A stretch of 64,000 nt of DNA from a bacterium (lineage in GTDB: Bacteria > Actinomycetota > Acidimicrobiia > Spongiisociales > Spongiisociaceae), in the NCBI GenBank assembly GCA_028820935.1, contig JAPPHZ010000035.1, forward strand, positions 50,747 through 114,746, written 5' to 3'. The notes under the pieces are model-generated. The model was given only the letters and a program-made list of their open reading frames with translations, had not been told where the DNA came from and made no database searches. Below are positions 3,864-64,000 of the stretch, piece by piece. A program made the translations under genes and the position numbers. The first letter of the stretch is position 1; each line of letters opens with the position of its first letter.

Positions 3864-4748
3864 TCAGATCATCAATCGGAGGCTTCCGGCCCGGAGCCGG
3901 ACCAGGAGAGGGGTCCGGCCGATGGGTTCCCCGTCCACCTCCACCGGCCACGGTGGGTTGGCCTCGATCCGGGCCTCAGGGGCGACGAAGCGGCGGACAC
4001 CCGGGTCGGCGAGGTGATCGCCGCCTCTGGCCTTCCGCATCAGGGCAGCCACCTCCCTCCTCCGGCTGCTGATGACCTGTATGTCGAGCAACCCGTCGAC
4101 CATGGATGCCCGGGGGGCGATGTTGAAGCCACCCCCGAAGAACTGGGCGTTGGCCGCCACGACGGTGAGGGCCGGGCCGGAGAACTCCCTCCTACCGGCC
4201 TCGACGCGGGCGTCGAGCCTGCGCCAGGACGGCAGGGATGCGGCGACAGCCGCCACGTAGCGAAACGACCCCAGCCGGGCGGGTATGCGCTGGGCGGTCC
4301 TGGCGGCCGCGGCCGTGGCGCCGGCGCTGGCCACGTTGAGGAAATACCTGCGTCCCCACTCCCCCATGGCAAGGCCGACGTCCACCGGATAGGGCGTCCC
4401 TTCGATCAGGCGGGCGGCCGCCCGGTCGAGGTCGGGGCCGATCCCGAAGGTCCGGAGCAGGTCGCAGCCCGTACCCGCCGGGAGGATGCCAAGGAGCGGC
4501 GCCGCACTCCATCCGTGGGCCATGATCTCGTTGAGCACCGCGTTGACCGTCCCGTCTCCCCCCACCGCCACCAAGCGCCGCCGATCAGCGCTCGCGGCTT
4601 CTTTGACGGCGTCTCCCAGCGCGCCCAGCCCGTCCACCTCCAGAACATCCGCGGGTACCGAATGGGACCGGAGAGCGGCCACCGCGTCAGCCTTGGCCGA
4701 CCGGCCCCGGCCGGCGTGCGGGTTGACCAGCACCAGCCAGGGGGTCAT
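3864..4748 (-). CDS. diacylglycerol/lipid kinase family protein (DAGK_cat)
   Basis: LVLVNPHAGRGR...VAVGGDGTVNAV... is the DAGK catalytic-domain signature. Confidence 0.85.
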   Translation of the reverse strand: MTPWLVLVNPHAGRGRSAKADAVAALRSHSVPADVLEVDGLGALGDAVKEAASADRRRLVAVGGDGTVNAVLNEIMAHGWSAAPLLGILPAGTGCDLLRTFGIGPDLDRAAARLIEGTPYPVDVGLAMGEWGRRYFLNVASAGATAAAARTAQRIPARLGSFRYVAAVAASLPSWRRLDARVEAGRREFSGPALTVVAANAQFFGGGFNIAPRASMVDGLLDIQVISSRRREVAALMRKARGGDHLADPGVRRFVAPEARIEANPPWPVEVDGEPIGRTPLLVRLRAGSLRLMI

Positions 4749-6784
4749 ACGACGCCTCCGGCGGTGACGATTCCCCGATCGATGCCCGAGCGGGCCCGGT
4801 TGGCAGCCCGTTCGAGCTCACCCATCCCCAGGACCCGCGCCGCGTCACCGACCTGGCGCAGGAGGTCCAGAACGGACCGGGTGGTACGGACGAAGTCCCC
4901 TGCGGCAAGAGAGCCCTCGTCGAGGAGCTCCTCCAGGTCGATCCGGAGCGCCCAGGCGTATGCGAGCCACGCGAACCCGGGATGGGGGAAGCGGGTCACG
5001 GGCAGGCGATGGCGTTCCTCGGTGGCGGCGAGGTCCTCCGCCAGCTCCACCAGGCGGCTCCAGGCATCCTCGAGGGGCTCGGTGGGCCATCCCTCCGGCT
5101 CGTCGGCGTCCCGTCGGGGCTCGTAGGCGAAGGCAGACAGCAGGGCCGCCAGCTCCGGCGCGCGCAGCCCGGCGAGAATCCCGGCGCGTATCGCTTCCAC
5201 GAGGAGGAGGCCCAGGTCGCTGTATACGACCCGGAGCGCCTGTCCCCCCGGCTCGAGCCTCCAATCCCGGATGTGCCCGCGCTGTTCCAGGAGGCGCCGA
5301 GCCCGGTCGAACCTCTGCAGGAGGGTGCTCCGGCGAGGGCGCGACCTGCGGCCGCTCCCCTTGCCACGGGTCCGGTTGGTAAGCCGCCGGTCCTGGAACT
5401 CGGCGAACGACGCGGCGAGGAGCCGCTCGGCCTGGCGGCGTGAGTAATTCGCCACCAGGTTCACCAGCATGTTGTAGGTGGGGCGGAAGCTGGACCGCAG
5501 GGGATGGCTGCCGAGCCGGGCGATCGATGCCATGCGCTCGAACGGCACGAAGTGCGAATGAAGCACGACCCCGTGGCCCACCGTATCGATACCGCGGCGT
5601 CCGGCCCGGCCTGTCAGCTGGGTGAACTCTCCGGGGAGCAGCAGCTCGTGGCTCTCGCCGGTGAACCTCGACAGGCGGTCGAGCACGACGGTCCGAGCGG
5701 GCATGTTGATGCCCAGCGCCAGGGTCTCGGTGGCGAACACCACCTTGATCAGCCCATCGCAGAAGAGCTGCTCGACCACCTCCTTGAAGGCCGGCACGAG
5801 GCCGGCATGGTGGGCCGCCACTCCCCGCTCGAGCCTGGCCAGCCACCGGTCGTGTCCCAGCGTCCGCAGGTCGGACGAGTCGAGATGGGCGGTTCCCTTC
5901 TCGGCGCGGCGCCGGATCTCGTCCCGTTCGGCGTCGTCAGTGAGCCGGATCCCGGCGGCGACCACCCGGTCGGCGGCTTCGTCGCACCCCGCGCGCGAGA
6001 ACAGGAAGTAGATGGCCGGGAGCAGGTCGAGAAAGGCGAGATGCTCCACCACCGAGGTCCTCCGCGGGGTGGAGAAGCGGCGTCGGCGACCACCCCGCCG
6101 AGCCAGGAGGCGGGGAATGGCGGCGTTGGGCCTCATCCCGCCGGACGCCTCCACGTAGAGCGGTAGGAGATGGACCTCCCGGTCGAAACGGTCCCAGACC
6201 GACCACCACCGTTCGAGCCGTACCGGCCGGTGCTCCTCGACGACCAGCTCGGTGGGACCCCGCCGTGTGCGTAACCAGTCGGTGAACTCGCCCGCGTTGG
6301 AGACGGTCGCCGACAGGCACACCAGCCGGATATGGGATGGAGCGTGGATGATCACCTCCTCCCAGACCGCGCCGCGGAACCGGTCCTGCAGGTAGTGGAC
6401 CTCGTCGAGGACCACCGTGTCGACCATGGACAGGTCCGATCCGGAGTAGATCATGTTGCGCAGTACCTCTGTGGTCATCACCACGACGGGAGCGTCGTGG
6501 TTGATGGTGTTGTCGCCGGTCAGCAACCCGACCCGGTCGCTTCCATGAACGGCGCCGAAGTCCCGGAACTTCTGGTTGGACAGCGCCTTGAGGGGCGTCG
6601 TGTAGAACACGCGGCGCCGGTTGGCCAGGCTCAGGTGGATGGCCGCCTCGGCGATCAGGGTCTTACCGGCGCCGGTGGGAGCCGTCACCACCACCGACCG
6701 GCCCATCTCCACCATCTCGGCGGCCAGCACCTGGTAGGGGTCGGCCGTGAACGGGAGCGACTCGAAGAAGGTGTGAACCCTCAT
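4745..6784 (-). CDS. helY: DEAD/DEAH-box (Ski2-like) RNA helicase HelY
   Basis: Starts MRVHTFFESLPFTADPYQVLAAEMVEMGRSVVVTAPTGAGKT (motif I) and carries DEVH. The C-terminal region resembles the HelY/Ski2 DSHCT domain. The start was chosen at the ATGA overlap with the tatC stop. The 928-aa in-frame upstream extension overlaps tatC and was rejected. Confidence 0.85.
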   Translation of the reverse strand: MRVHTFFESLPFTADPYQVLAAEMVEMGRSVVVTAPTGAGKTLIAEAAIHLSLANRRRVFYTTPLKALSNQKFRDFGAVHGSDRVGLLTGDNTINHDAPVVVMTTEVLRNMIYSGSDLSMVDTVVLDEVHYLQDRFRGAVWEEVIIHAPSHIRLVCLSATVSNAGEFTDWLRTRRGPTELVVEEHRPVRLERWWSVWDRFDREVHLLPLYVEASGGMRPNAAIPRLLARRGGRRRRFSTPRRTSVVEHLAFLDLLPAIYFLFSRAGCDEAADRVVAAGIRLTDDAERDEIRRRAEKGTAHLDSSDLRTLGHDRWLARLERGVAAHHAGLVPAFKEVVEQLFCDGLIKVVFATETLALGINMPARTVVLDRLSRFTGESHELLLPGEFTQLTGRAGRRGIDTVGHGVVLHSHFVPFERMASIARLGSHPLRSSFRPTYNMLVNLVANYSRRQAERLLAASFAEFQDRRLTNRTRGKGSGRRSRPRRSTLLQRFDRARRLLEQRGHIRDWRLEPGGQALRVVYSDLGLLLVEAIRAGILAGLRAPELAALLSAFAYEPRRDADEPEGWPTEPLEDAWSRLVELAEDLAATEERHRLPVTRFPHPGFAWLAYAWALRIDLEELLDEGSLAAGDFVRTTRSVLDLLRQVGDAARVLGMGELERAANRARSGIDRGIVTAGGVV

Positions 6785-7500
6785 TTCTTGAGGGTCAGGC
6801 GGATCAGCCAGATGGTGGCCTCGTAGAACAGGTAGAGCGGGGTCGAGAGCAGCAGGAGCGTCACCGGATCGCCGGTGGGGCTCACCGCGGCCCCTACCAC
6901 GACGATGATGAGTACCGCCCAGCGCCGACCGGCGGCCAACTTGTCGGAACTCACCACGCCGGCCGCAGCCGCGCCGTACAGGAACACGGGGAACTGGAAC
7001 GAGATGCCGAACAGCAGCAGGAAGCGGATCACGAAACGGGTGTAGAGCTCGACCGTCCAGAGATTCTCCAGGTCCTCGAAGATCGACACGAGGAACGCGA
7101 CCGCCCGGGGAAGGCTCCAGTAGGCAAACCCGACGCCGAGGCAGAACAGAGTGACCAGCGCCGCCACCACCGGGAAGGCCCACTTGCGTTCCCTCTGGGT
7201 GAGGCCGGGGTTGATGAAGCACCACGCCTGGTAGGCGATCACGGGGCTGGCCAGGACCGTCCCACCGAAGAGCGCCATCCGCATGGCGATCGAGAACTGG
7301 TCGGTGGGACCGGTCACCACCAGATCCCGCCCTGCCACCTCGCTGTAGGAGTTCTGCAGGAGGTAGAGCATCTGGTTGCGGAAGAAGAAGGCGACCACGG
7401 TGCAGGCGCCGACTGCTATGAAGGTCTTGACCAGACGTGACCGGAGCTCCGTGAGGTGCCCCATCAGCGGCTGGCCGGAGGAATCGGCTCCTTCCGTCAT
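6781..7500 (-). CDS. tatC: twin-arginine translocase subunit TatC
   Basis: 239 aa with 6 TM helices and the typical TatC N-terminus (LTELRSRL). Confidence 0.9.
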   Translation of the reverse strand: MTEGADSSGQPLMGHLTELRSRLVKTFIAVGACTVVAFFFRNQMLYLLQNSYSEVAGRDLVVTGPTDQFSIAMRMALFGGTVLASPVIAYQAWCFINPGLTQRERKWAFPVVAALVTLFCLGVGFAYWSLPRAVAFLVSIFEDLENLWTVELYTRFVIRFLLLFGISFQFPVFLYGAAAAGVVSSDKLAAGRRWAVLIIVVVGAAVSPTGDPVTLLLLSTPLYLFYEATIWLIRLTLKK

Positions 7501-8084
7501 TCGCCCCTGTCCGTTTGCTCGTCGGCTTCACGTCCGGCAGCGGCTTCCCCCAGATCGCCGTCCTCGCCTACAGGCGGGTCGGCGGCCTCCTCGTCCGGGC
7601 CCTCCTCCTGAGTGGGGCTCGGTGCGTCGAGCGGTACCACGTTCCCGGGCATCGGGTCGTCCAGGCCCTTCCACGCTTCGCCGGGCGACACGCCCACCGG
7701 GGGTTCGGGGGCCACCCATCGCGCCTCGGGCGCTTCCGGCGTCTCCGGGACGGGGGTGGCGGCATCAGGCGCGGCCCGGCCGGTTTCCTCGAGGGACTGC
7801 CTGATGTCGCGGTCCACGGCGCCGGCGGCATCGGCGGTCTCGGCCAGCGTCCGCTTCACGTCGCTCACCGGCTCGGCCAGGTCCTCGCGGAGTTCCTTGA
7901 TCGGCTCGCGCAGCGGAGCCACCTCCTTCTCGATCCCCTCGCGAAGGTCTCGGACGGCGTCGCGGAGCTCCCGGACGTACTTGCCCATGGTGCGGGCGAT
8001 CTCGGGCAGGCGGTGCGGACCGAAGACCACCAGGGCTATCACGGCGATGGTGAGTATCTCGAGACCGCTGAACGTGTCGAACAC
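7497..8084 (-). CDS. tatA: twin-arginine translocase subunit TatA/TatB
   Basis: N-terminal TM plus amphipathic helix MFDTFSGLEILTIAVIALVVFGPHRLPEIARTMGKYVREL (the TatA/B signature), followed by a long acidic tail. Confidence 0.8.
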   Translation of the reverse strand: MFDTFSGLEILTIAVIALVVFGPHRLPEIARTMGKYVRELRDAVRDLREGIEKEVAPLREPIKELREDLAEPVSDVKRTLAETADAAGAVDRDIRQSLEETGRAAPDAATPVPETPEAPEARWVAPEPPVGVSPGEAWKGLDDPMPGNVVPLDAPSPTQEEGPDEEAADPPVGEDGDLGEAAAGREADEQTDRGE

Positions 8085-58836: not shown

Positions 58837-58937
58837 AGTTGCTAGATCCTAGTTGTCAGTTGCTAGTTGCTAGTTCTATGTTGTTAGTTCCTAGTTGTGC
58901 TAGTACCTAGAGACTAGAGACTATCAACTAGAAACTA
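58837..58937. repeat. CTAG-rich spacer (copy G), between ccdA start and fabI stop
   Basis: agttgctagatcctagttgtcagttgctagttgctagttctatgttgttagttcctagttgtgctagtacctagagactagagactatcaactagaaactag. It carries 13 CTAG tetramers in about 100 bp. Confidence 0.8.
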
Positions 58938-59708
58938 GGTAGCGATGGCGTGGAATCCGGCGTCCACATGGATGACCTCGCCGGTCACCTTGGTGGCGAA
59001 GTCCGAGAGCATCACACAGATCATGTTGGCCACCGGGGTGGGATCGGACGTGTCCCAGGTGAGGGGGGCTCGCTCGCTCCAGACATGCTGGAACCGTTCG
59101 AACCCGGGGATGCCCTTGGCCGCCATGGTCGACAGCGGGCCCGCCGACACGGCGTTCACCCGAACGTTGTGGCGCCCCAGGTCGCGGGCCAGGTAGCGGG
59201 TCACCGAGGCCAGGGCGGCCTTGCACACTCCCATCCAGTCGTAGGCGGGCCAGGCCTGGGTGCTGTTGTCGAAGTCGAGGGTCACCAGGGATCCGCCCCC
59301 TGCTTCCTCGAACAGCGGCAACAGGCCCACGGCCAGGGTCTTGTAGGAGAACGCCGAGGTGGTGAAAGCAAGGGAGGCGCTCTCCACGGGCGTGGTCAGG
59401 AAGTTGCCGCCCAGCGCGTCCTCGGGAGCGAAGGCTATGGCGTGCAAGGCCCCGTCCAGGCGCCCCCAGCGTCGCCCCAGCTCGTCGACAAGCTGCTGCA
59501 TGTGAACCGGATCGTTGATGTCGAGCTCGAACACGTCGGGCGGATCCGGCAGGCGGCGGGCTGCCCGTTGGGTGAGACGCATCCCCCGCCCGAATCCGGT
59601 CAGGACTATCTCGGCGCCCTGTTCCTGGGCCACCTTGGCGCTGTGCCAGGCGATCGAACCGTGCGTGAGGACGCCGGTTACCAGCACCCGCTTACCTGTC
59701 AGCAGCAT
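58935..59708 (-). CDS. fabI: enoyl-[acyl-carrier-protein] reductase (NADH) FabI/InhA
   Basis: MLLTGKRVLVTGV... and Tyr/Lys catalytic spacing typical of FabI/InhA. 257 aa. Confidence 0.9.
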   Translation of the reverse strand: MLLTGKRVLVTGVLTHGSIAWHSAKVAQEQGAEIVLTGFGRGMRLTQRAARRLPDPPDVFELDINDPVHMQQLVDELGRRWGRLDGALHAIAFAPEDALGGNFLTTPVESASLAFTTSAFSYKTLAVGLLPLFEEAGGGSLVTLDFDNSTQAWPAYDWMGVCKAALASVTRYLARDLGRHNVRVNAVSAGPLSTMAAKGIPGFERFQHVWSERAPLTWDTSDPTPVANMICVMLSDFATKVTGEVIHVDAGFHAIAT

Positions 59709-59762
59709 GACTCTCCTCCGTAGTTACCCGCCGGGCCCGAGCGCGCCGGCGCCGCAGGGGGC

Positions 59763-61724
59763 TCAGTCCTCGTCAGCAGGGGCCGCGGCAGCCATCTCCG
59801 CGATCTCGGCAACGATATCGGCATTCGCCAGCGTGGTCACGTCCCCCAGCTTCCGCTGCTCGGAGATGTCTCTCAGCAGGCGCCTCATGATCTTGCCCGA
59901 ACGGGTCTTGGGCACGTCAGGCGTGAAGACGATGCTCTTGGGCTTGGCGATCGGGCCGATCGAGCCGGCGACGTGATCCCGCAGCTCGCCTATCAGAGAT
60001 GCGTCGCCCTCGATGGTGCCCCGCAGGCTGACGAAGGCGGCGATTGCCTGGCCGGTGAGCGGATCGGACCGGCCCACCACCGCCGCCTCTGCCACGGACG
60101 GGTGCGAGACGAGGGCCGACTCCACCTCCATGGTGGAGATGTTGTGGCCCGACACGAGCATCACATCGTCCACCCTGCCCAGCAACCACAGATACCCGTC
60201 ATCGTCCAGCTTGGCACCGTCACCGGGGAAGTACAGGCCGTCATAGCGGGACCAGTAGGTGTCGACGTACCGCTGGTCGTCGCCCCAGATGGAGCGAAGC
60301 ATGGAAGGCCAGGTGTTGCGGAGCACCAGGTAGCCGCCCCCTCCCCTGCCGACCGGGCTGCCGGCATCGTCGACCACGTCCGCCTGGATGCCCGGCATCG
60401 GGTTGGTGGCCGATCCAGGCTTGGTGGCGGTGATGCCGGGAAGCGGGGCGATCATGATCGAGCCGGTTTCCGTCTGCCACCACGTGTCCATGACAGGCGC
60501 CTTCCCGCCGCCGATGTGCTCGTGATACCACATCCACGCCTCGGGGTTGATGGGTTCGCCCACCGTGCCGAGCACGCGCAGCGTGGACAGATCGTGGCGC
60601 TGCGGGTACTCCTCGCCCCATTTCATGAAAGCCCGGATGGCGGTGGGTGCGGTGTAGAGCTGGGTCACCTTGTACTTGGCGATGATCGACCACAGCCGGT
60701 CCTTGTCCGGGTAATCGGGCGTCCCCTCGTACATGACCGAGGTGGTCTGGTTGGCCAGAGGCCCGTAGACGATGTAGGTGTGACCGGTCACCCAGCCGAT
60801 GTCGGCGGCGCACCACCAGATGTCCTGGTCGGGCTTGATGTCGAACACGAAGCTGTGCGTCGTGGCCGCGCCCACCAGGTATCCCCCCGTGGTGTGCATG
60901 ATGCCCTTGGGCTTGGCGGTGGTGCCGGATGTGTACAGGATGTACAGCAGGTCCTCGGCGTTCATGACCTCGGGAGCGCACTCGGCGCTCTGGCCGTCCA
61001 CGAGATCGTGCCACCAGATGTCCCGACCCTCCTTCATGGTCACTTCGTTCTCGGTCCGGCGCAGCACCACGCACCGCTCGACCAGGTCGGTCCTCTCCAT
61101 GGCCCGGTCGGCGGCCACCTTCAGATCCACCACCTTCCCCCGGCGCCAGGCGCCGTCGCATGTGATCAGGACCCGGGCGCCGGCATCCTCGACCCGGTCG
61201 TAGATGGCGTCGGACGAGAAGCCGCCGAAGATGACGCTGTGGGCGGCGCCGATGCGGGCACAGGCCAGCATGGCCACCGCCAACTCGGGGACCATGCCCA
61301 TGTAGACGGCCACCCGGTCACCCTTCCGCACACCGATCGAGCGCAGGCCGTTGGCGAACCGGCAAACGTCCTCGTAGAGGTCCTGGTAGGTGATGGCGCG
61401 CTCGTCCCCCGGCTCGCCCTCCCAGTAGTAGGCCACCTTGCCGCCCTGGCCGGCCTCCACGTGGCGGTCGAGGCAGTTGTACGACATGTTGAGCTCGCCG
61501 TCGGTGAACCACTTGAAGAACGGCGGGTTGGAGTCGTCCAGGAGGACGGTGGGCTCCTTGAACCAGGTCACACGGTCGCGGGCCTGCGCCTCCCAGTAGG
61601 CGACCGGGTCGGCGGCCGCTTGCTCATGCAGGCCGGGTCGGGCGTTGGCCTGCCGGGTGAACTCCGGTGACGGCGGGAAGATGCGATCTTCCTGCAATAG
61701 GTTTTCGATAGTGCGCTCGGCCAC
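59763..61724 (-). CDS. acs: acetyl-CoA synthetase
   Basis: 653 aa. AMP-binding motifs (YTSGTTAKPKG) and an Acs-type N-terminus. Confidence 0.95.
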   Translation of the reverse strand: MAERTIENLLQEDRIFPPSPEFTRQANARPGLHEQAAADPVAYWEAQARDRVTWFKEPTVLLDDSNPPFFKWFTDGELNMSYNCLDRHVEAGQGGKVAYYWEGEPGDERAITYQDLYEDVCRFANGLRSIGVRKGDRVAVYMGMVPELAVAMLACARIGAAHSVIFGGFSSDAIYDRVEDAGARVLITCDGAWRRGKVVDLKVAADRAMERTDLVERCVVLRRTENEVTMKEGRDIWWHDLVDGQSAECAPEVMNAEDLLYILYTSGTTAKPKGIMHTTGGYLVGAATTHSFVFDIKPDQDIWWCAADIGWVTGHTYIVYGPLANQTTSVMYEGTPDYPDKDRLWSIIAKYKVTQLYTAPTAIRAFMKWGEEYPQRHDLSTLRVLGTVGEPINPEAWMWYHEHIGGGKAPVMDTWWQTETGSIMIAPLPGITATKPGSATNPMPGIQADVVDDAGSPVGRGGGGYLVLRNTWPSMLRSIWGDDQRYVDTYWSRYDGLYFPGDGAKLDDDGYLWLLGRVDDVMLVSGHNISTMEVESALVSHPSVAEAAVVGRSDPLTGQAIAAFVSLRGTIEGDASLIGELRDHVAGSIGPIAKPKSIVFTPDVPKTRSGKIMRRLLRDISEQRKLGDVTTLANADIVAEIAEMAAAAPADED

Positions 61725-61845: not shown

Positions 61846-63606
61846 TCAGCGGCCGCCTACGGCAGCGGGCACGCCGGAGGTGGTGGCGGCGTCCAGGGAG
61901 TCCCGGGCGTGGTACGAGGACCGCACCAGCGGGCCCGACTCGATGTGGGCCAGACCGGCCCGCCGGCCGAAGTCGGCGTACTCGGCGAATTCGTCGGGGT
62001 GGACGTAACGGTCCACCGGGCGGTGCCTAACGGTGGGCCGCAGGTACTGACCCACCGTGACCACGTCCACGCCGACCGCCCTGAGGTCGGCGATAGCTCC
62101 CAGAACCTCGTCGCGGACCTCGCCCATCCCCACGATCAATCCCGACTTCACCACACCGTCCGGTCGGTACCACTTCGCCCGGGCCAGGAGCGCCAGGGAG
62201 CGTCCGTACGAGGCGGCGGTCCTCACCTCGCGCTGGAGCCGGAGCACGGTCTCGGTGTTGTGGTTCAGCACCGCCGGCCCCGCTTCCATGACCCGCTCCA
62301 GGTCCGCCCTGACCCCCTTGAAGTCGGGAATCAGCACCTCCACGTCGCACTCCGGCACCCGATTGCGCACCTCCTGTACGGTCCTGGCGAAGACGGTCGA
62401 GCCGCCGTCGGGTAGGTCGTCGCGGTTGACGGACGTGATCACGGCGTGGCGGAGACCCATCGCCGCTATGGCCTCGGCCACCCGGACCGGTTCCTGAAGG
62501 TCGAGTCCTTGAGGGCGGCCCGTGGTGACGTCGCAGAAACCACATGCCCGGGTGCAGACACCACCCAGGATCATGATGGTGGCGGCGCCCTCGCTCCAGC
62601 ACTCGTAGATGTTGGGGCAGCCTGCTTCCTCGCAAACCGTGTGGAGGTCGAGTTCCCGCATCAGCCTTCCCAGTTGCCGGTATTCCGGCCCCAGGCGGGC
62701 GGTCACCTTCATCCACGGCGCCCGGGGCGGCTCGCCCGCCAACCGCTTGCCGATCGTCACCGGCACGGATGCCCGACCCTTGGGGGCGAAGGTCCCCTCG
62801 GCGAGGAGCCGGTCCACCTCGAAGGTTCTGGGCCGGCCCTGCCCCCGGGTGAAGGCGCCCAGTTGGAGGTCGTTCTGCTCGTAACCGAACACCTCCACGA
62901 AGCGCGGGACAAGCAACTCCACGGCCTCCTCGATCGAGATCCTCCTGCCCAGCAACTCCGCCAGGGACGTGACGGGCCGGTCGGTGATGCCGCACGGGTG
63001 CATGTGGCCGAAGTAGCTCATGTCGGGATCGACGTTCAGGGCGAAGCCATGCATGGTGACGCCGCGAGCCACGCGGACCCCGATTGCGGCCACCTTCCCG
63101 CGGTCGGTCCACACTCCGGTGTACCCGGCATCCCGCCAGGCCTCCAGGCCGAGGTCGGACATCGTGCGGATCAGCACCTCCTCCACGGCCCGCACGTAGG
63201 GGACGATCTTGCGCAGGTCGGCCAGGGCCAGGATGGGATAGCCGACCAGCTGGCCGGGGCCGTGGTAGGTGATGTCGCCTCCACGGTCGATGTCGAAACG
63301 CTGCGCGCCGATCCCCGCCAGGCGATCCTCGGGTAGGAGGAGGTGGGAGCCGTCGCCATTCCGACCCACGGTGTAGACGTGGGAGTGTTCCTGCAGGAGC
63401 AGGTAGTCCGATCCGGCCCGGCCGGTCTGCCTACCTTCCCAGAAGGCGCGCTGCAGGTCCCAGGCCTCGTCGTAGGCGAGACGGCCCAACCATCGGGTGC
63501 GCAACCGGGTCGGGTCGGCGGCTACCCGGAACTGCCCATCCGAGTCGACCGGGAGCGGGACCGGTTCCGGTGGTCGTGGTCTGTCTAGGTCAGTTGCTGT
63601 TCCCAA
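61846..63606 (-). CDS. apparent in-frame fusion of octanoyltransferase LipB (N-terminal ~230 aa) and lipoyl synthase LipA (C-terminal ~310 aa)
   Basis: The LipB region has ...YLLLQEHSHVYTVGR...DRGGDITYHGPGQLVGYPIL...; the LipA region has ...PPRAPWMKVTARLGPEY...CEEAGCPNIYECW...CTRACGFC... (radical-SAM and Fe-S cysteines). There is no stop codon and no frame change between the two. Start uncertain: TTG at 63606 or ATG at 63684, the latter overlapping the E2 gene by about 100 nt. Confidence 0.7.
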   Translation of the reverse strand: MGTATDLDRPRPPEPVPLPVDSDGQFRVAADPTRLRTRWLGRLAYDEAWDLQRAFWEGRQTGRAGSDYLLLQEHSHVYTVGRNGDGSHLLLPEDRLAGIGAQRFDIDRGGDITYHGPGQLVGYPILALADLRKIVPYVRAVEEVLIRTMSDLGLEAWRDAGYTGVWTDRGKVAAIGVRVARGVTMHGFALNVDPDMSYFGHMHPCGITDRPVTSLAELLGRRISIEEAVELLVPRFVEVFGYEQNDLQLGAFTRGQGRPRTFEVDRLLAEGTFAPKGRASVPVTIGKRLAGEPPRAPWMKVTARLGPEYRQLGRLMRELDLHTVCEEAGCPNIYECWSEGAATIMILGGVCTRACGFCDVTTGRPQGLDLQEPVRVAEAIAAMGLRHAVITSVNRDDLPDGGSTVFARTVQEVRNRVPECDVEVLIPDFKGVRADLERVMEAGPAVLNHNTETVLRLQREVRTAASYGRSLALLARAKWYRPDGVVKSGLIVGMGEVRDEVLGAIADLRAVGVDVVTVGQYLRPTVRHRPVDRYVHPDEFAEYADFGRRAGLAHIESGPLVRSSYHARDSLDAATTSGVPAAVGGR

Positions 63607-64000
63607 TCCCAGGTCTCCAGGTTGTCCTTGATCCGGCGGAGGAATAGGACCGCGACGGCGCCGTCGAAGGCTCGATGATCCCATGACAGGCCGAGGTAAC
63701 CCAGTGGCCTGATGGCGATGGCGTCCGCGCCATCGGGCGTGGTGACCACCTTGGGTCGCTTGGCGATCCCGTCGGTCGAGAGGATGGCCACGTTGGGAAC
63801 GTTGATGACCGGCGCCGACATGAACGATCCGTAGGGTCCCGGATTGGTGATCGTGAACGTACTGGCGGATACGTCATCCGGACCCACCCGACCGCCGCGT
63901 GCCCGCACCGCCAGGTCACGGACCTTCCTGGCAAGGGCCCTCAGCGAGTAGTCATCCGCCTTCGGGATGGTGACCACCATCAGGCCGTCCTGGTTGAGGT
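63585..64000 (-). CDS. dihydrolipoamide acyltransferase (E2) catalytic-domain C-terminus; 5' part lies beyond the window
   Basis: ...LSTDGIAKRPKVV...LGLSWDHRAFDGAVAVLFL... is the E2 catalytic core with the DHRxxDG motif. Confidence 0.8.
   Translation of the reverse strand, partial: LNQDGLMVVTIPKADDYSLRALARKVRDLAVRARGGRVGPDDVSASTFTITNPGPYGSFMSAPVINVPNVAILSTDGIAKRPKVVTTPDGADAIAIRPLGYLGLSWDHRAFDGAVAVLFLRRIKDNLETWDWEQQLT

What the first reader, a model, noticed from the sequence alone, without database searches (positions are those of the whole stretch)
61846..63684. lipB and lipA appear fused into one continuous ORF
One reading frame runs from a LipB octanoyltransferase region (PGQLVGYPIL, catalytic Cys region HPCGITD) straight into a full LipA lipoyl synthase (CEEAGCPNIYECW...CTRACGFC). 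There is no stop and no frame change, only an ~50-aa linker in between. The only in-frame start codon near the LipA N-terminus is the conserved Met of PPWMKV. In mycobacteria and most bacteria these are separate adjacent genes.

A bifunctional octanoyl-transfer / sulfur-insertion enzyme would channel the octanoyl-E2 intermediate. The E2 gene lies immediately upstream.
Basis: seen in the sequence. Interest (0 to 1): 0.5.

Follow-up and report, generated by a model that had tools for sequence, protein, structure and literature searches.

The report
Natural LipB–LipA fusion enzyme gene
The two enzymes that build the lipoic acid cofactor on its target proteins are encoded here as one genuine fused protein; the fusion is shared by a whole class of actinobacteria and recurs in other phyla, and databases label it only "lipoyl synthase".

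Summary
On the minus strand, 61846-63684 is one uninterrupted frame. It encodes a complete LipB octanoyltransferase domain, a junction of about 50 aa, and a complete LipA lipoyl synthase.

It is not an assembly error. The same single-frame arrangement occurs in 63 of 80 related genome loci, all Acidimicrobiia-like, including long-read chromosomes. It also occurs in all 120 best protein clusters (66-95% identity). Sixteen loci from class Actinomycetes have a stop codon between lipB and lipA.

All catalytic residues are invariant. The junction has the coding GC3 signature, and synonymous codon differences outnumber amino-acid-changing ones there. It is as conserved as the domains.

- The real start is most likely TTG 63606 (586 aa, GGAG Shine-Dalgarno, 22-nt overlap with the E2 stop), not ATG 63684.
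- In-frame GTG/TTG codons do exist in the junction.

LipB-LipA fusions also occur in Desulfosporosinus, Propionispora, Planctomycetes, Chloroflexota and Thermodesulfobacteriota. A reverse LipA-LipB order and a curated LplA-LipA fusion family also exist.

This is therefore a real, recurrent fusion of two consecutive enzymes that I could not find described in the papers I could search. Hand-over of the octanoyl-lipoyl domain between the two active sites is plausible but untested. Interest is modest.

The parts
61846..63606 (-). Most likely CDS of the fused LipB-LipA protein: 586 aa, TTG start at 63606, stop at 61846-61848.
   Evidence: The ORF is listed. The same 22-nt overlap with E2 is seen in L081.
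63607..63684 (-). The 5' extension of the mechanical ORF up to ATG 63684. It is probably not translated in this frame and lies inside the E2 coding region.
   Evidence: GC3 is 0.38, against 0.85 for the ORF as a whole. Mean column identity is 0.02 and occupancy 0.03 among 120 homologues.
63615..63618 (-). GGAG Shine-Dalgarno sequence, 8 nt upstream of TTG 63606.
   Evidence: the upstream sequence is TCAAGGACAACCTGGAGACCTGGGA, followed by TTG.
62869..63519 (-). LipB octanoyltransferase domain (aa 56-272 of the 612-aa ORF). It includes the catalytic Lys197 (63094-63096) and Cys231 (62992-62994).
   Evidence: Pfam PF21948 E 3.5e-44. NF010925 scores 203 bits and TIGR00214 150 bits, both above cutoff. 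K171 and C205 in 586-aa numbering are invariant in 57 sequences. The model matches T. thermophilus LipB 2qhs at TMt 0.95 and M. tuberculosis LipB 1w66 at TMt 0.89.
62725..62868 (-). Inter-domain junction (about aa 273-320). It carries the conserved motif LQLGAFTRGQGRP...FEVDRLLAEGTF. It is not a free spacer.
   Evidence: GC3 is 0.91. Mean column identity is 0.76, against 0.80 for LipB and 0.83 for LipA, with 100% occupancy. Invariant residues are listed. Synonymous differences exceed non-synonymous ones. The F[ST]RG motif is in 41 of 63 fused loci and 0 of 16 split loci. No Pfam family matches it.
61885..62724 (-). LipA lipoyl synthase domain (aa 321-600). Auxiliary-cluster motif CX4CX5C: C351/C356/C362 at 62599-62634. 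Radical-SAM motif CX3CX2C: C377/C381/C384 at 62533-62556. RSSY motif: aa 588-591 at 61912-61923.
   Evidence: NF004019 scores 390 bits and TIGR00510 338 bits, both above cutoff. PF04055 and PF16881 match. All six Cys residues and RSSY are invariant. The sequence matches M. tuberculosis LipA 5exi at E 2.8e-91, and the model matches 5exk at TMt 0.89.
63585..64000 (-). The 3' end of the upstream E2 (dihydrolipoamide acyltransferase) gene, cut by the window edge. Its stop is TAG 63585-63587. It overlaps the fusion gene's start by 22 nt.
   Evidence: PF00198 E 2.6e-32. The stop codon is shown. The full E3-E2-LipBA arrangement is seen in L081.

Best explanation
The locus encodes one polypeptide of about 586 aa, a natural LipB-LipA fusion.

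How it most likely works:
1. The N-terminal domain is an octanoyl-ACP:protein N-octanoyltransferase. It takes octanoyl from octanoyl-ACP onto its active-site Cys231, assisted by Lys197. It then passes it to the lipoyl-lysine of a lipoyl domain (E2 subunits, GcvH).
2. The C-terminal domain is a radical-SAM lipoyl synthase. Using two SAM molecules, it inserts two sulfur atoms from its auxiliary [4Fe-4S] cluster at C6 and C8 of that protein-bound octanoyl group.
3. Because both steps act on the same swinging lipoyl domain, the fusion fixes a 1:1 stoichiometry. It also holds the second active site next to the first, so an octanoylated domain can be handed over without dissociating.
4. The gene is translationally coupled to the E2 gene that encodes a substrate.

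The fusion arose from the ancestral actinobacterial E2-lipB-lipA gene order by loss of the lipB stop codon. It has since been fixed in most Acidimicrobiia.

Shown here: the single frame, its conservation, intact catalytic residues and purifying selection on the junction. Inferred: that both activities are present, that one polypeptide is made, and that hand-over occurs.
For: - The ORF is uninterrupted and both domains score above curated cutoffs.
- The catalytic Lys/Cys dyad of LipB, both Cys triads of LipA and the RSSY motif are invariant across 57 fused homologues.
- The fusion is conserved in 63 of 80 genome loci and in all 120 best clusters, drawn from ENA, NCBI, JGI and Logan assemblies and including Mb-scale contigs.
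- Sixteen Actinomycetes loci have lipB, a stop, then lipA in the same order, with similar spacing of 93-225 nt from the lipB stop codon to the start of the lipA match.
- The junction has coding GC3, conserved residues, and more synonymous than non-synonymous differences.
- The AlphaFold2 model has mean pLDDT 79.6 and whole-chain pTM 0.84. Each half superposes on solved LipA or LipB structures at TMt 0.89-0.95.
- The E3-E2-LipBA synteny and the 22-nt overlap with E2 are conserved in a 4.0-Mb contig.
- Independent LipB-LipA, LipA-LipB and LplA-LipA fusions exist in other lineages. This is the classic signature of functionally coupled partners.
- The Cys/Lys dyad mechanism is described in PMC9307952. 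The action of LipA on the protein-bound octanoyl group is described in PMC12246082.
Against: - There is no protein-level evidence that a single 586-aa product accumulates.
- In-frame GTG/TTG codons in the junction (aa 290, 307, 309, 315) leave room for an additional internally initiated LipA.
- Proteolytic processing at the conserved junction cannot be excluded.
- Hand-over or channelling is not tested. I could not read model coordinates or PAE, so the distance and orientation of the two active sites are unknown.
- Junction length varies from 92 to 162 aa (LipB Cys to first LipA Cys) across the class, and four lineages (L027, L030, L045, L068) have only 92-98 aa. A specific geometry is therefore not universally required.
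- Only 64 kb of this genome was seen, so stand-alone lipA or lipB paralogues elsewhere cannot be excluded. There are none in the window.
Confidence: 0.87

Rival explanations
1. Assembly or sequencing artefact. A missed stop codon or a compensated frameshift in the junction has artificially joined two ordinary adjacent genes.
For: Separate adjacent lipB and lipA genes are the norm in the sister class Actinomycetes. High-GC genomes produce long spurious ORFs, and many are visible. A few MAG loci (L076, L078) do show frameshift-like breaks inside the domains.
Against: The same open frame is present in 63 independently assembled genomes and more than 120 protein clusters at 66-95% identity, including long-read chromosomes. 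The junction has GC3 of 0.91, invariant residues, and more synonymous than non-synonymous differences. No alternative frame is favoured.
Confidence: 0.01
2. The frame is continuous, but the cell makes two proteins. LipA is also, or mainly, produced from an internal start in the junction, or the fusion is cleaved after translation. The enzymes would then act as separate proteins, as in other bacteria.
For: In-frame GTG codons at aa 290, 307 and 309, a TTG at aa 315 and an ATG at aa 325 precede the LipA core. The junction sequence is unusually conserved, which would also fit a processing or recognition site.
Against: No convincing Shine-Dalgarno sequence lies upstream of the internal candidates. 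LipB has no stop, so any ribosome starting at TTG 63606 must make the fusion. Fusions in both domain orders recur in other phyla with much shorter junctions, which argues that the covalent link itself is what is selected. AlphaFold2 predicts one compact chain with pTM 0.84.
Confidence: 0.08
3. One domain is a catalytically dead docking module. For example, the LipB domain would only bind lipoyl domains or ACP to recruit LipA, and a different transferase or ligase would do the octanoylation.
For: The fused proteins are annotated only as 'lipoyl synthase'. Some Acidimicrobiia use other lipoate routes: the PMC10332631 S2 table lists Acidimicrobium ferrooxidans with LplA and LipS1/S2 and no LipB.
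Against: The LipB Lys and Cys dyad, the PCG motif and the GPGQ.VGYP motif are invariant. The LipB equivalog HMMs score above their curated cutoffs. LipB-domain conservation (0.80) equals that of LipA (0.83). The PMC10332631 survey lists Microthrix and Ilumatobacter with LipB and LipA as their only transferase and synthase.
Confidence: 0.03

Closest known systems
Stand-alone LipB plus LipA pathway of E. coli and Mycobacterium tuberculosis (structures 1W66 for LipB; 5EXI/5EXJ/5EXK for LipA)
   Same: The two chemistries, catalytic residues and folds are the same. The sequence matches M. tuberculosis LipA at phmmer E 2.8e-91 and LipB at 4.2e-47. The model superposes on them at TMt 0.89. The actinobacterial gene order E2-lipB-lipA is also the same.
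   Different: Here the two enzymes are one polypeptide. They are joined by a conserved junction of about 50 aa that has no counterpart in the split genes: the F[ST]RG motif is in 0 of 16 split loci. The gene also overlaps the E2 stop by 22 nt.
NCBIfam NF053790 'LplA_LipA_fuse', a bifunctional lipoate-protein ligase/lipoyl synthase
   Same: A member of the lipoate ligase/transferase catalytic-domain superfamily sits N-terminal to, and is fused with, a complete LipA. P0293 is an example, with LplA-B_cat, Lip_prot_lig_C and Radical_SAM domains.
   Different: The window protein scores 343.5 bits against a cutoff of 800, and only its LipA half aligns (profile positions 335-605). Its N-terminal domain is a LipB (ACP-dependent Cys/Lys octanoyltransferase). 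It is not an ATP-dependent LplA and has no Lip_prot_lig_C accessory domain.
Uncharacterised LipB-LipA and LipA-LipB fusions in other phyla (Desulfosporosinus nitroreducens, Propionispora sp. 2/2-37, and MAGs of Planctomycetes, Anaerolineae/Chloroflexota and Thermodesulfobacteriota)
   Same: These have the same two domains. Most are in the same order, and all are named 'lipoyl synthase' by their sources.
   Different: They are shorter (about 490-560 aa). LipA starts 10-50 residues after LipB ends, and they lack the Acidimicrobiia junction motif. P0176, P0187, P0203 and P0244 have the reverse order, LipA-LipB. These probably arose as independent fusion events, but I made no phylogeny.

Membership tests
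LipB octanoyl-ACP:protein N-octanoyltransferase | Matches the LipB equivalog HMMs above their curated cutoffs | tested here: met
   NF010925 scores 203.3 bits (cutoff 155) and TIGR00214 scores 150.2 bits (cutoff 83.55), over aa 56-267.
LipB octanoyl-ACP:protein N-octanoyltransferase | Cys/Lys catalytic dyad (M. tuberculosis C176/K142; E. coli C169/K135, per PMC9307952) | tested here: met
   K197 (in GKVAAIG) and C231 (in HPCG) are present. They are invariant in 57 fused homologues (K171/C205 in 586-aa numbering). The dyad is described.
LipB octanoyl-ACP:protein N-octanoyltransferase | No LplA-type C-terminal accessory domain (Lip_prot_lig_C) | tested here: met
   Pfam finds only LplA-B_cat, LIAS_N and Radical_SAM.
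LipB octanoyl-ACP:protein N-octanoyltransferase | Octanoyl transfer activity from octanoyl-ACP to apo-lipoyl domains | not testable with these tools
   This needs an enzyme assay or complementation of an E. coli lipB mutant.
LipA lipoyl synthase (radical SAM) | Matches the lipoyl synthase HMMs above their curated cutoffs | tested here: met
   TIGR00510 scores 337.9 bits (cutoff 310.25) and NF004019 scores 389.6 bits (cutoff 203), over aa 323-600.
LipA lipoyl synthase (radical SAM) | CX3CX2C radical-SAM cluster motif, N-terminal CX4CX5C auxiliary-cluster motif and C-terminal RSSY serine ligand | tested here: met
   C377/C381/C384, C351/C356/C362 and RSSY 588-591 are present (sequence). All are invariant in alignment A1.
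LipA lipoyl synthase (radical SAM) | LipA fold | tested here: met
   The AlphaFold2 model matches 5exk at TMt 0.89-0.90 and 4u0p at TMt 0.90.
NF053790 LplA_LipA_fuse (bifunctional lipoate-protein ligase/lipoyl synthase) | Full-length match above the 800-bit cutoff, including the LplA and accessory domains | tested here: not met
   The score is 343.5 bits, and only profile positions 335-605 (the LipA half) align.
Natural LipB-LipA fusion (architecture, not a curated family) | A single open frame across both domains, conserved in orthologues | tested here: met
   Sixty-three of 80 loci are fused, with no stop between the HSPs. All 120 best clusters are two-domain proteins.
Natural LipB-LipA fusion (architecture, not a curated family) | A single polypeptide is made and both activities reside on it | not testable with these tools
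   This needs proteomics, a western blot and enzyme assays.

The most novel reading that the evidence does not exclude
The Acidimicrobiia fusion may be more than a tether. Its conserved junction module (QLGAFTRGQG...EVDRLLAEGTF, absent from split genes and from fusions in other phyla) would lock the LipB and LipA active sites into a fixed two-station machine, or would dock the enzyme onto the E2 core or ACP. A lipoyl domain would then be octanoylated and sulfurated in a single encounter. This would be a natural model for substrate hand-over between a transferase and a radical-SAM enzyme that consumes its own cluster.
Probability: 0.15. Interest if true: 0.6.

Novelty: new variant of a known kind. 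Interest (0 to 1): 0.3.

Why it matters
Lipoyl assembly is a textbook two-enzyme pathway in which both enzymes act on the same protein-bound substrate. How the octanoylated lipoyl domain passes from LipB to LipA is not settled.

A naturally fused, evolutionarily stable LipB-LipA offers:
- a ready-made system for structural and kinetic study of that hand-over;
- "Rosetta-stone" evidence (two proteins found fused elsewhere tend to work together) that the two enzymes cooperate physically;
- a clade marker for Acidimicrobiia against other Actinomycetota;
- an annotation fix. Hundreds of database entries called "lipoyl synthase" also carry the organism's LipB, so tools that take one function per gene can wrongly score these genomes as lacking lipB.

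It does not reveal new chemistry.

Tried and rejected
- **Literature.** Eight full-text searches found no paper describing a natural LipB-LipA fusion. I also read the hits. The large survey PMC10332631 scores LipB and LipA only as present or absent, and its text and supplements do not mention this fusion. Cronan's 2024 review (PMC11332335) and Hassan & Cronan 2011 (PMC3048712) are not held, so a mention there cannot be excluded.
- **Junction homology.** From memory I suspected that the junction motif DLSxFSRGxGPG corresponds to the N-terminal part of eukaryotic LIAS (Pfam LIAS_N). The test did not support this. LIAS_N aligns only from profile position 58 onward, starting just before the (K/R)P.W(M/L)(K/R) stretch (PPRAPWMKV in the window). 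A profile search against PDB lipoyl synthases also stops there.
- **Start codon.** ATG 63684 is rejected on GC3, conservation and its 100-nt overlap with E2. TTG 63504 and 63489 are less likely, because GC3 is already 0.74-0.85 in aa 34-60 and they have no Shine-Dalgarno sequence.
- **afdb50 fold search.** I wanted UniProt names and organisms of similar fusions, but the library was unavailable.
- **L008 codon comparison.** This failed because my start coordinate was out of frame, so I ignored it.
- **Taxonomy of reverse-order fusions.** It could not be established, because the sources give no names.
Full report

Yes. The ORF listing reports one ORF on the minus strand, 61846..63684, 612 aa.

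Domain searches give these boundaries:
- Pfam places the lipoyl ligase A/B catalytic domain at aa 71-262 (E 3.5e-44).
- Pfam places LIAS_N at aa 322-356 and Radical_SAM at aa 372-531.
- NCBIfam LipB equivalogs score above their curated cutoffs: NF010925, 203 bits (cutoff 155); TIGR00214, 150 bits (cutoff 83.55).
- NCBIfam lipoyl synthase models also score above cutoff: NF004019, 390 bits (cutoff 203); TIGR00510, 338 bits (cutoff 310).

The LipB domain ends at about aa 270 and LipA begins at about aa 321. The "about 50-aa linker" is therefore accurate.

The upstream neighbour is the 3' end of an E2 acyltransferase (PF00198, E 2.6e-32). Acetyl-CoA synthetase and an enoyl-ACP-reductase-like gene lie downstream.

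**2. Corrections to the observation**

The mechanical ORF starts at ATG 63684, but its first 26 codons have GC3 of 0.38, against 0.85 for the whole ORF. They lie inside the E2 coding region, and homologues have essentially no residues there.

TTG 63606 is the most likely start:
- It has a GGAG sequence 8 nt upstream.
- It is the commonest aligned start among homologues (44 of 120).
- It overlaps the E2 stop (TAG 63585-63587) by 22 nt.
- The same 22-nt overlap is called in a 4.0-Mb contig (L081).

The product is thus about 586 aa, with an N-tail of about 33 aa that is poorly conserved and predicted to be disordered.

In-frame GTG codons (aa 290, 307, 309) and a TTG (aa 315) also exist, though none has a good Shine-Dalgarno sequence.

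**3. Artefact or real?**

Real.

A protein search returned 120 best clusters at 66-95% identity. All are 522-608 aa with both domains. They come from ENA, NCBI, JGI and Logan assemblies, several on contigs of 2.4-4.0 Mb.

A scan of one genome per species returned 80 loci. I re-checked each by tblastn of the two halves and looked for stop codons between them:
- Sixty-three loci have one uninterrupted frame. All are labelled Acidimicrobiia, Acidimicrobiales or Acidimicrobiaceae, Ca. Microthrix, OCS155, or the sponge-associated Ca. Spongiisociaceae and Ca. Poriferisocius, or carry uninformative or suspect MAG labels.
- Sixteen loci have a stop codon after lipB. They are from class Actinomycetes or carry only broad Actinomycetes/Actinomycetota MAG labels: Mycobacterium, Dietzia, Rhodococcus, Microtetraspora, Nocardioides, Dactylosporangium, Nocardiopsis, Streptomyces, Actinacidiphila and Nanopelagicales, plus L060 and L063.
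- The remaining locus (L054) matched only the LipA half, so it could not be classified.

The junction behaves as coding sequence in this frame:
- GC3 is 0.91, the same as the domains.
- Occupancy is 100% and mean column identity is 0.76, against 0.80 for LipB and 0.83 for LipA.
- Synonymous-only codon differences outnumber amino-acid-changing ones: 18 vs 11 against L001 and 25 vs 17 against L002.

The nearest relatives are 95% (ENA) and 91% (MYB45812.1, 'Acidimicrobiia bacterium') identical. The nearest named genome is a Ca. Spongiisociaceae chromosome at 79%.

**4. Are both halves functional enzymes?**

In an alignment of 57 fused homologues, the following are invariant (586-aa numbering; add 26 for ORF numbering):
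- the LipB catalytic Lys171 and Cys205, the Cys/Lys dyad described for M. tuberculosis and E. coli LipB (PMC9307952);
- the auxiliary-cluster cysteines C325, C330 and C336;
- the radical-SAM cysteines C351, C355 and C358;
- the RSSY motif.

Sequence matches to solved structures are strong: M. tuberculosis LipA at E 2.8e-91, T. thermophilus LipB at E 8e-49 and M. tuberculosis LipB at E 4e-47.

An AlphaFold2 model built on the alignment has mean pLDDT 79.6 and whole-chain pTM 0.84. Its halves superpose on 5exk (TMt 0.89-0.90) and on 2qhs (TMt 0.95) and 1w66 (TMt 0.89).

A pTM that high for a two-domain chain suggests a defined relative packing. I could not inspect the coordinates or PAE, so this remains a suggestion.

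**5. The junction**

In the split-gene Actinomycetes, LipA begins with ...PEGRKLLRLEVRNAxTPIERKPxWIK, and LipB ends in a variable tail.

In the window's lineage the junction is QNDLQLGAFTRGQGRPRTFEVDRLLAEGTFAPKGRASVPVTIGKRLAGEPPRAPWMKV. It has invariant residues: Q, GQG, VD, G.F, P and L.

Deeper Acidimicrobiia show a related motif, DLSxF[ST]RGxGPG ... VRLLGRLAEAGV. The F[ST]RG core occurs in 41 of 63 fused loci and in 0 of 16 split loci.

The distance from the LipB Cys to the first LipA Cys ranges from 92 to 162 aa, with a median of 121.

Pfam LIAS_N covers only the last part of the junction, from just before the PPRAPWMKV-type stretch onward. A PDB profile search likewise does not extend into the junction. 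The motif's role is unexplained.

**6. Mechanism proposed**

- Step 1: LipB takes octanoyl from octanoyl-ACP onto its Cys thioester and passes it to the lipoyl-lysine.
- Step 2: LipA inserts sulfur at C6 and C8 of that protein-bound octanoyl group, using two SAM molecules and sulfur from its auxiliary cluster.

Both steps are established knowledge for the two families (PMC9307952, PMC12246082). Both act on the same mobile lipoyl domain, so a covalent link gives 1:1 stoichiometry and proximity.

The 22-nt overlap with the E2 gene suggests translational coupling to a substrate protein.

The fusion most simply arose from the ancestral E2-lipB-lipA order by loss of the lipB stop. In the split relatives the stretch from the lipB stop codon to the start of the lipA match is 93-225 nt, while the gap between the LipB and LipA matches is 117-288 nt in split loci and 66-366 nt in fused ones.

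Hand-over, or "channelling", is an inference and has not been shown.

**7. How unusual is it?**

A search of 1.84 billion 50%-identity representatives returned dozens of two-domain proteins of 490-590 aa among the top 150 hits. Pfam confirmed three architectures:
- LipB-LipA: P0196, P0204, P0217, P0225 and P0275.
- The reverse order, LipA-LipB: P0176, P0187, P0203 and P0244.
- LplA-LipA: P0293.

A further search, followed by NCBIfam scans, showed genuine LipB-LipA fusions in several other groups:
- cultured Desulfosporosinus nitroreducens and Desulfosporosinus sp. BG;
- Propionispora sp. 2/2-37;
- MAGs of Planctomycetes, Anaerolineae/Chloroflexota and Thermodesulfobacteriota.

These have shorter junctions. 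All are named just 'lipoyl synthase' or 'lipoic acid synthetase' by their sources.

NCBIfam curates a sibling fusion, NF053790 LplA_LipA_fuse. The window protein fails that model (343 bits against a cutoff of 800), and no LipB-LipA model appeared among the NCBIfam matches.

**8. Literature**

Eight searches and the papers I read turned up no description of a natural LipB-LipA fusion.

The broad phylogenomic survey PMC10332631 discusses LplA-LplB fusions. It lists Microthrix, Ilumatobacter and Acidithrix simply as LipB = 1 and LipA = 1.

Two key Cronan papers are not in the library, so prior mention cannot be ruled out.

**9. Verdict**

It is a clade-wide, recurrent Rosetta-stone fusion of two consecutive, well-understood enzymes. 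It is a new variant of a known kind: visible in databases, under-annotated and uncharacterised. Its interest is modest.

The one feature that is not ordinary is the conserved, lineage-specific junction motif.

Noticed in passing
window 63585-63606 (minus strand): The likely TTG start of the fusion gene overlaps the end of the E2 gene by 22 nt, and the GGAG Shine-Dalgarno sequence lies inside the E2 coding sequence. The same overlap appears in L081 (E2 4658-6022, fusion gene 6001-7755). This suggests translational coupling of the lipoylating enzyme to its substrate protein.
   Followed up: partly
window 62725-62877; loci L001-L078: The inter-domain junction carries a conserved motif: QLGAFTRGQG in the window's lineage and DLSxF[ST]RGxGPG in deeper lineages. 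It matches no Pfam family and is absent from split lipB|lipA loci and from the shorter fusions of other phyla. Its function is unknown.
   Followed up: partly
P0176, P0187, P0203, P0244: Fusions in the reverse order, LipA-LipB (lipoyl synthase N-terminal, LipB C-terminal), exist. One is on a 7.85-Mb NCBI contig. Their taxonomy could not be determined.
   Followed up: partly
P0349, P0365, P0426, P0326, P0332, P0346, P0359: LipB-LipA fusions with short junctions occur in cultured Desulfosporosinus and Propionispora and in MAGs of Planctomycetes, Anaerolineae/Chloroflexota and Thermodesulfobacteriota. All are named only 'lipoyl synthase' or 'hypothetical protein'. This is a systematic under-annotation that can make genomes look as if they lack lipB.
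   Followed up: partly
L022, L024, L056: Three MAG labels look inconsistent with the locus content. L022 is labelled 'uncultured Gammaproteobacteria' but resembles the OCS155 locus L021 in identity to the query (51% overall) and in junction length (120 aa). L024 is labelled 'Gemmatimonadales' but has a fused gene 66% identical to the window. L056 is a 'Mycobacterium sp.' soil MAG. These may be mis-binned contigs or wrong labels.
   Followed up: no
L076 (3977-4553), L078: In these two Acidimicrobiaceae MAG loci the LipA or LipB match is truncated inside the domain (LipA query residues 4-178 only; LipB query residues 81-212 only). These are probably frameshift errors in the MAG assemblies rather than biology.
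   Followed up: no
window 58935-61724 (minus strand): Downstream of the fusion gene lie an acetyl-CoA synthetase (59763-61724; ACAS_N, AMP-binding and AMP-binding_C domains) and an enoyl-ACP-reductase-type short-chain dehydrogenase (58935-59708). The acs and adh_short genes also follow the fusion gene in L081, with three extra genes in between.
   Followed up: partly
window 59973-61670 (+), 62446-63336 (+), 62027-63112 (-): Long ORFs of 296-565 aa lie antisense to, or out of frame with, the acs and lipBA genes. This is typical of high-GC DNA. I treated them as non-coding and did not test them further.
   Followed up: no
PMC10332631, S2 Table: Acidimicrobium ferrooxidans and Ferrimicrobium acidiphilum are listed without LipB. 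A. ferrooxidans has LplA plus LipS1/LipS2. The fusion is therefore not universal in the class, and the basal acidophilic genera may use a different lipoate route.
   Followed up: no
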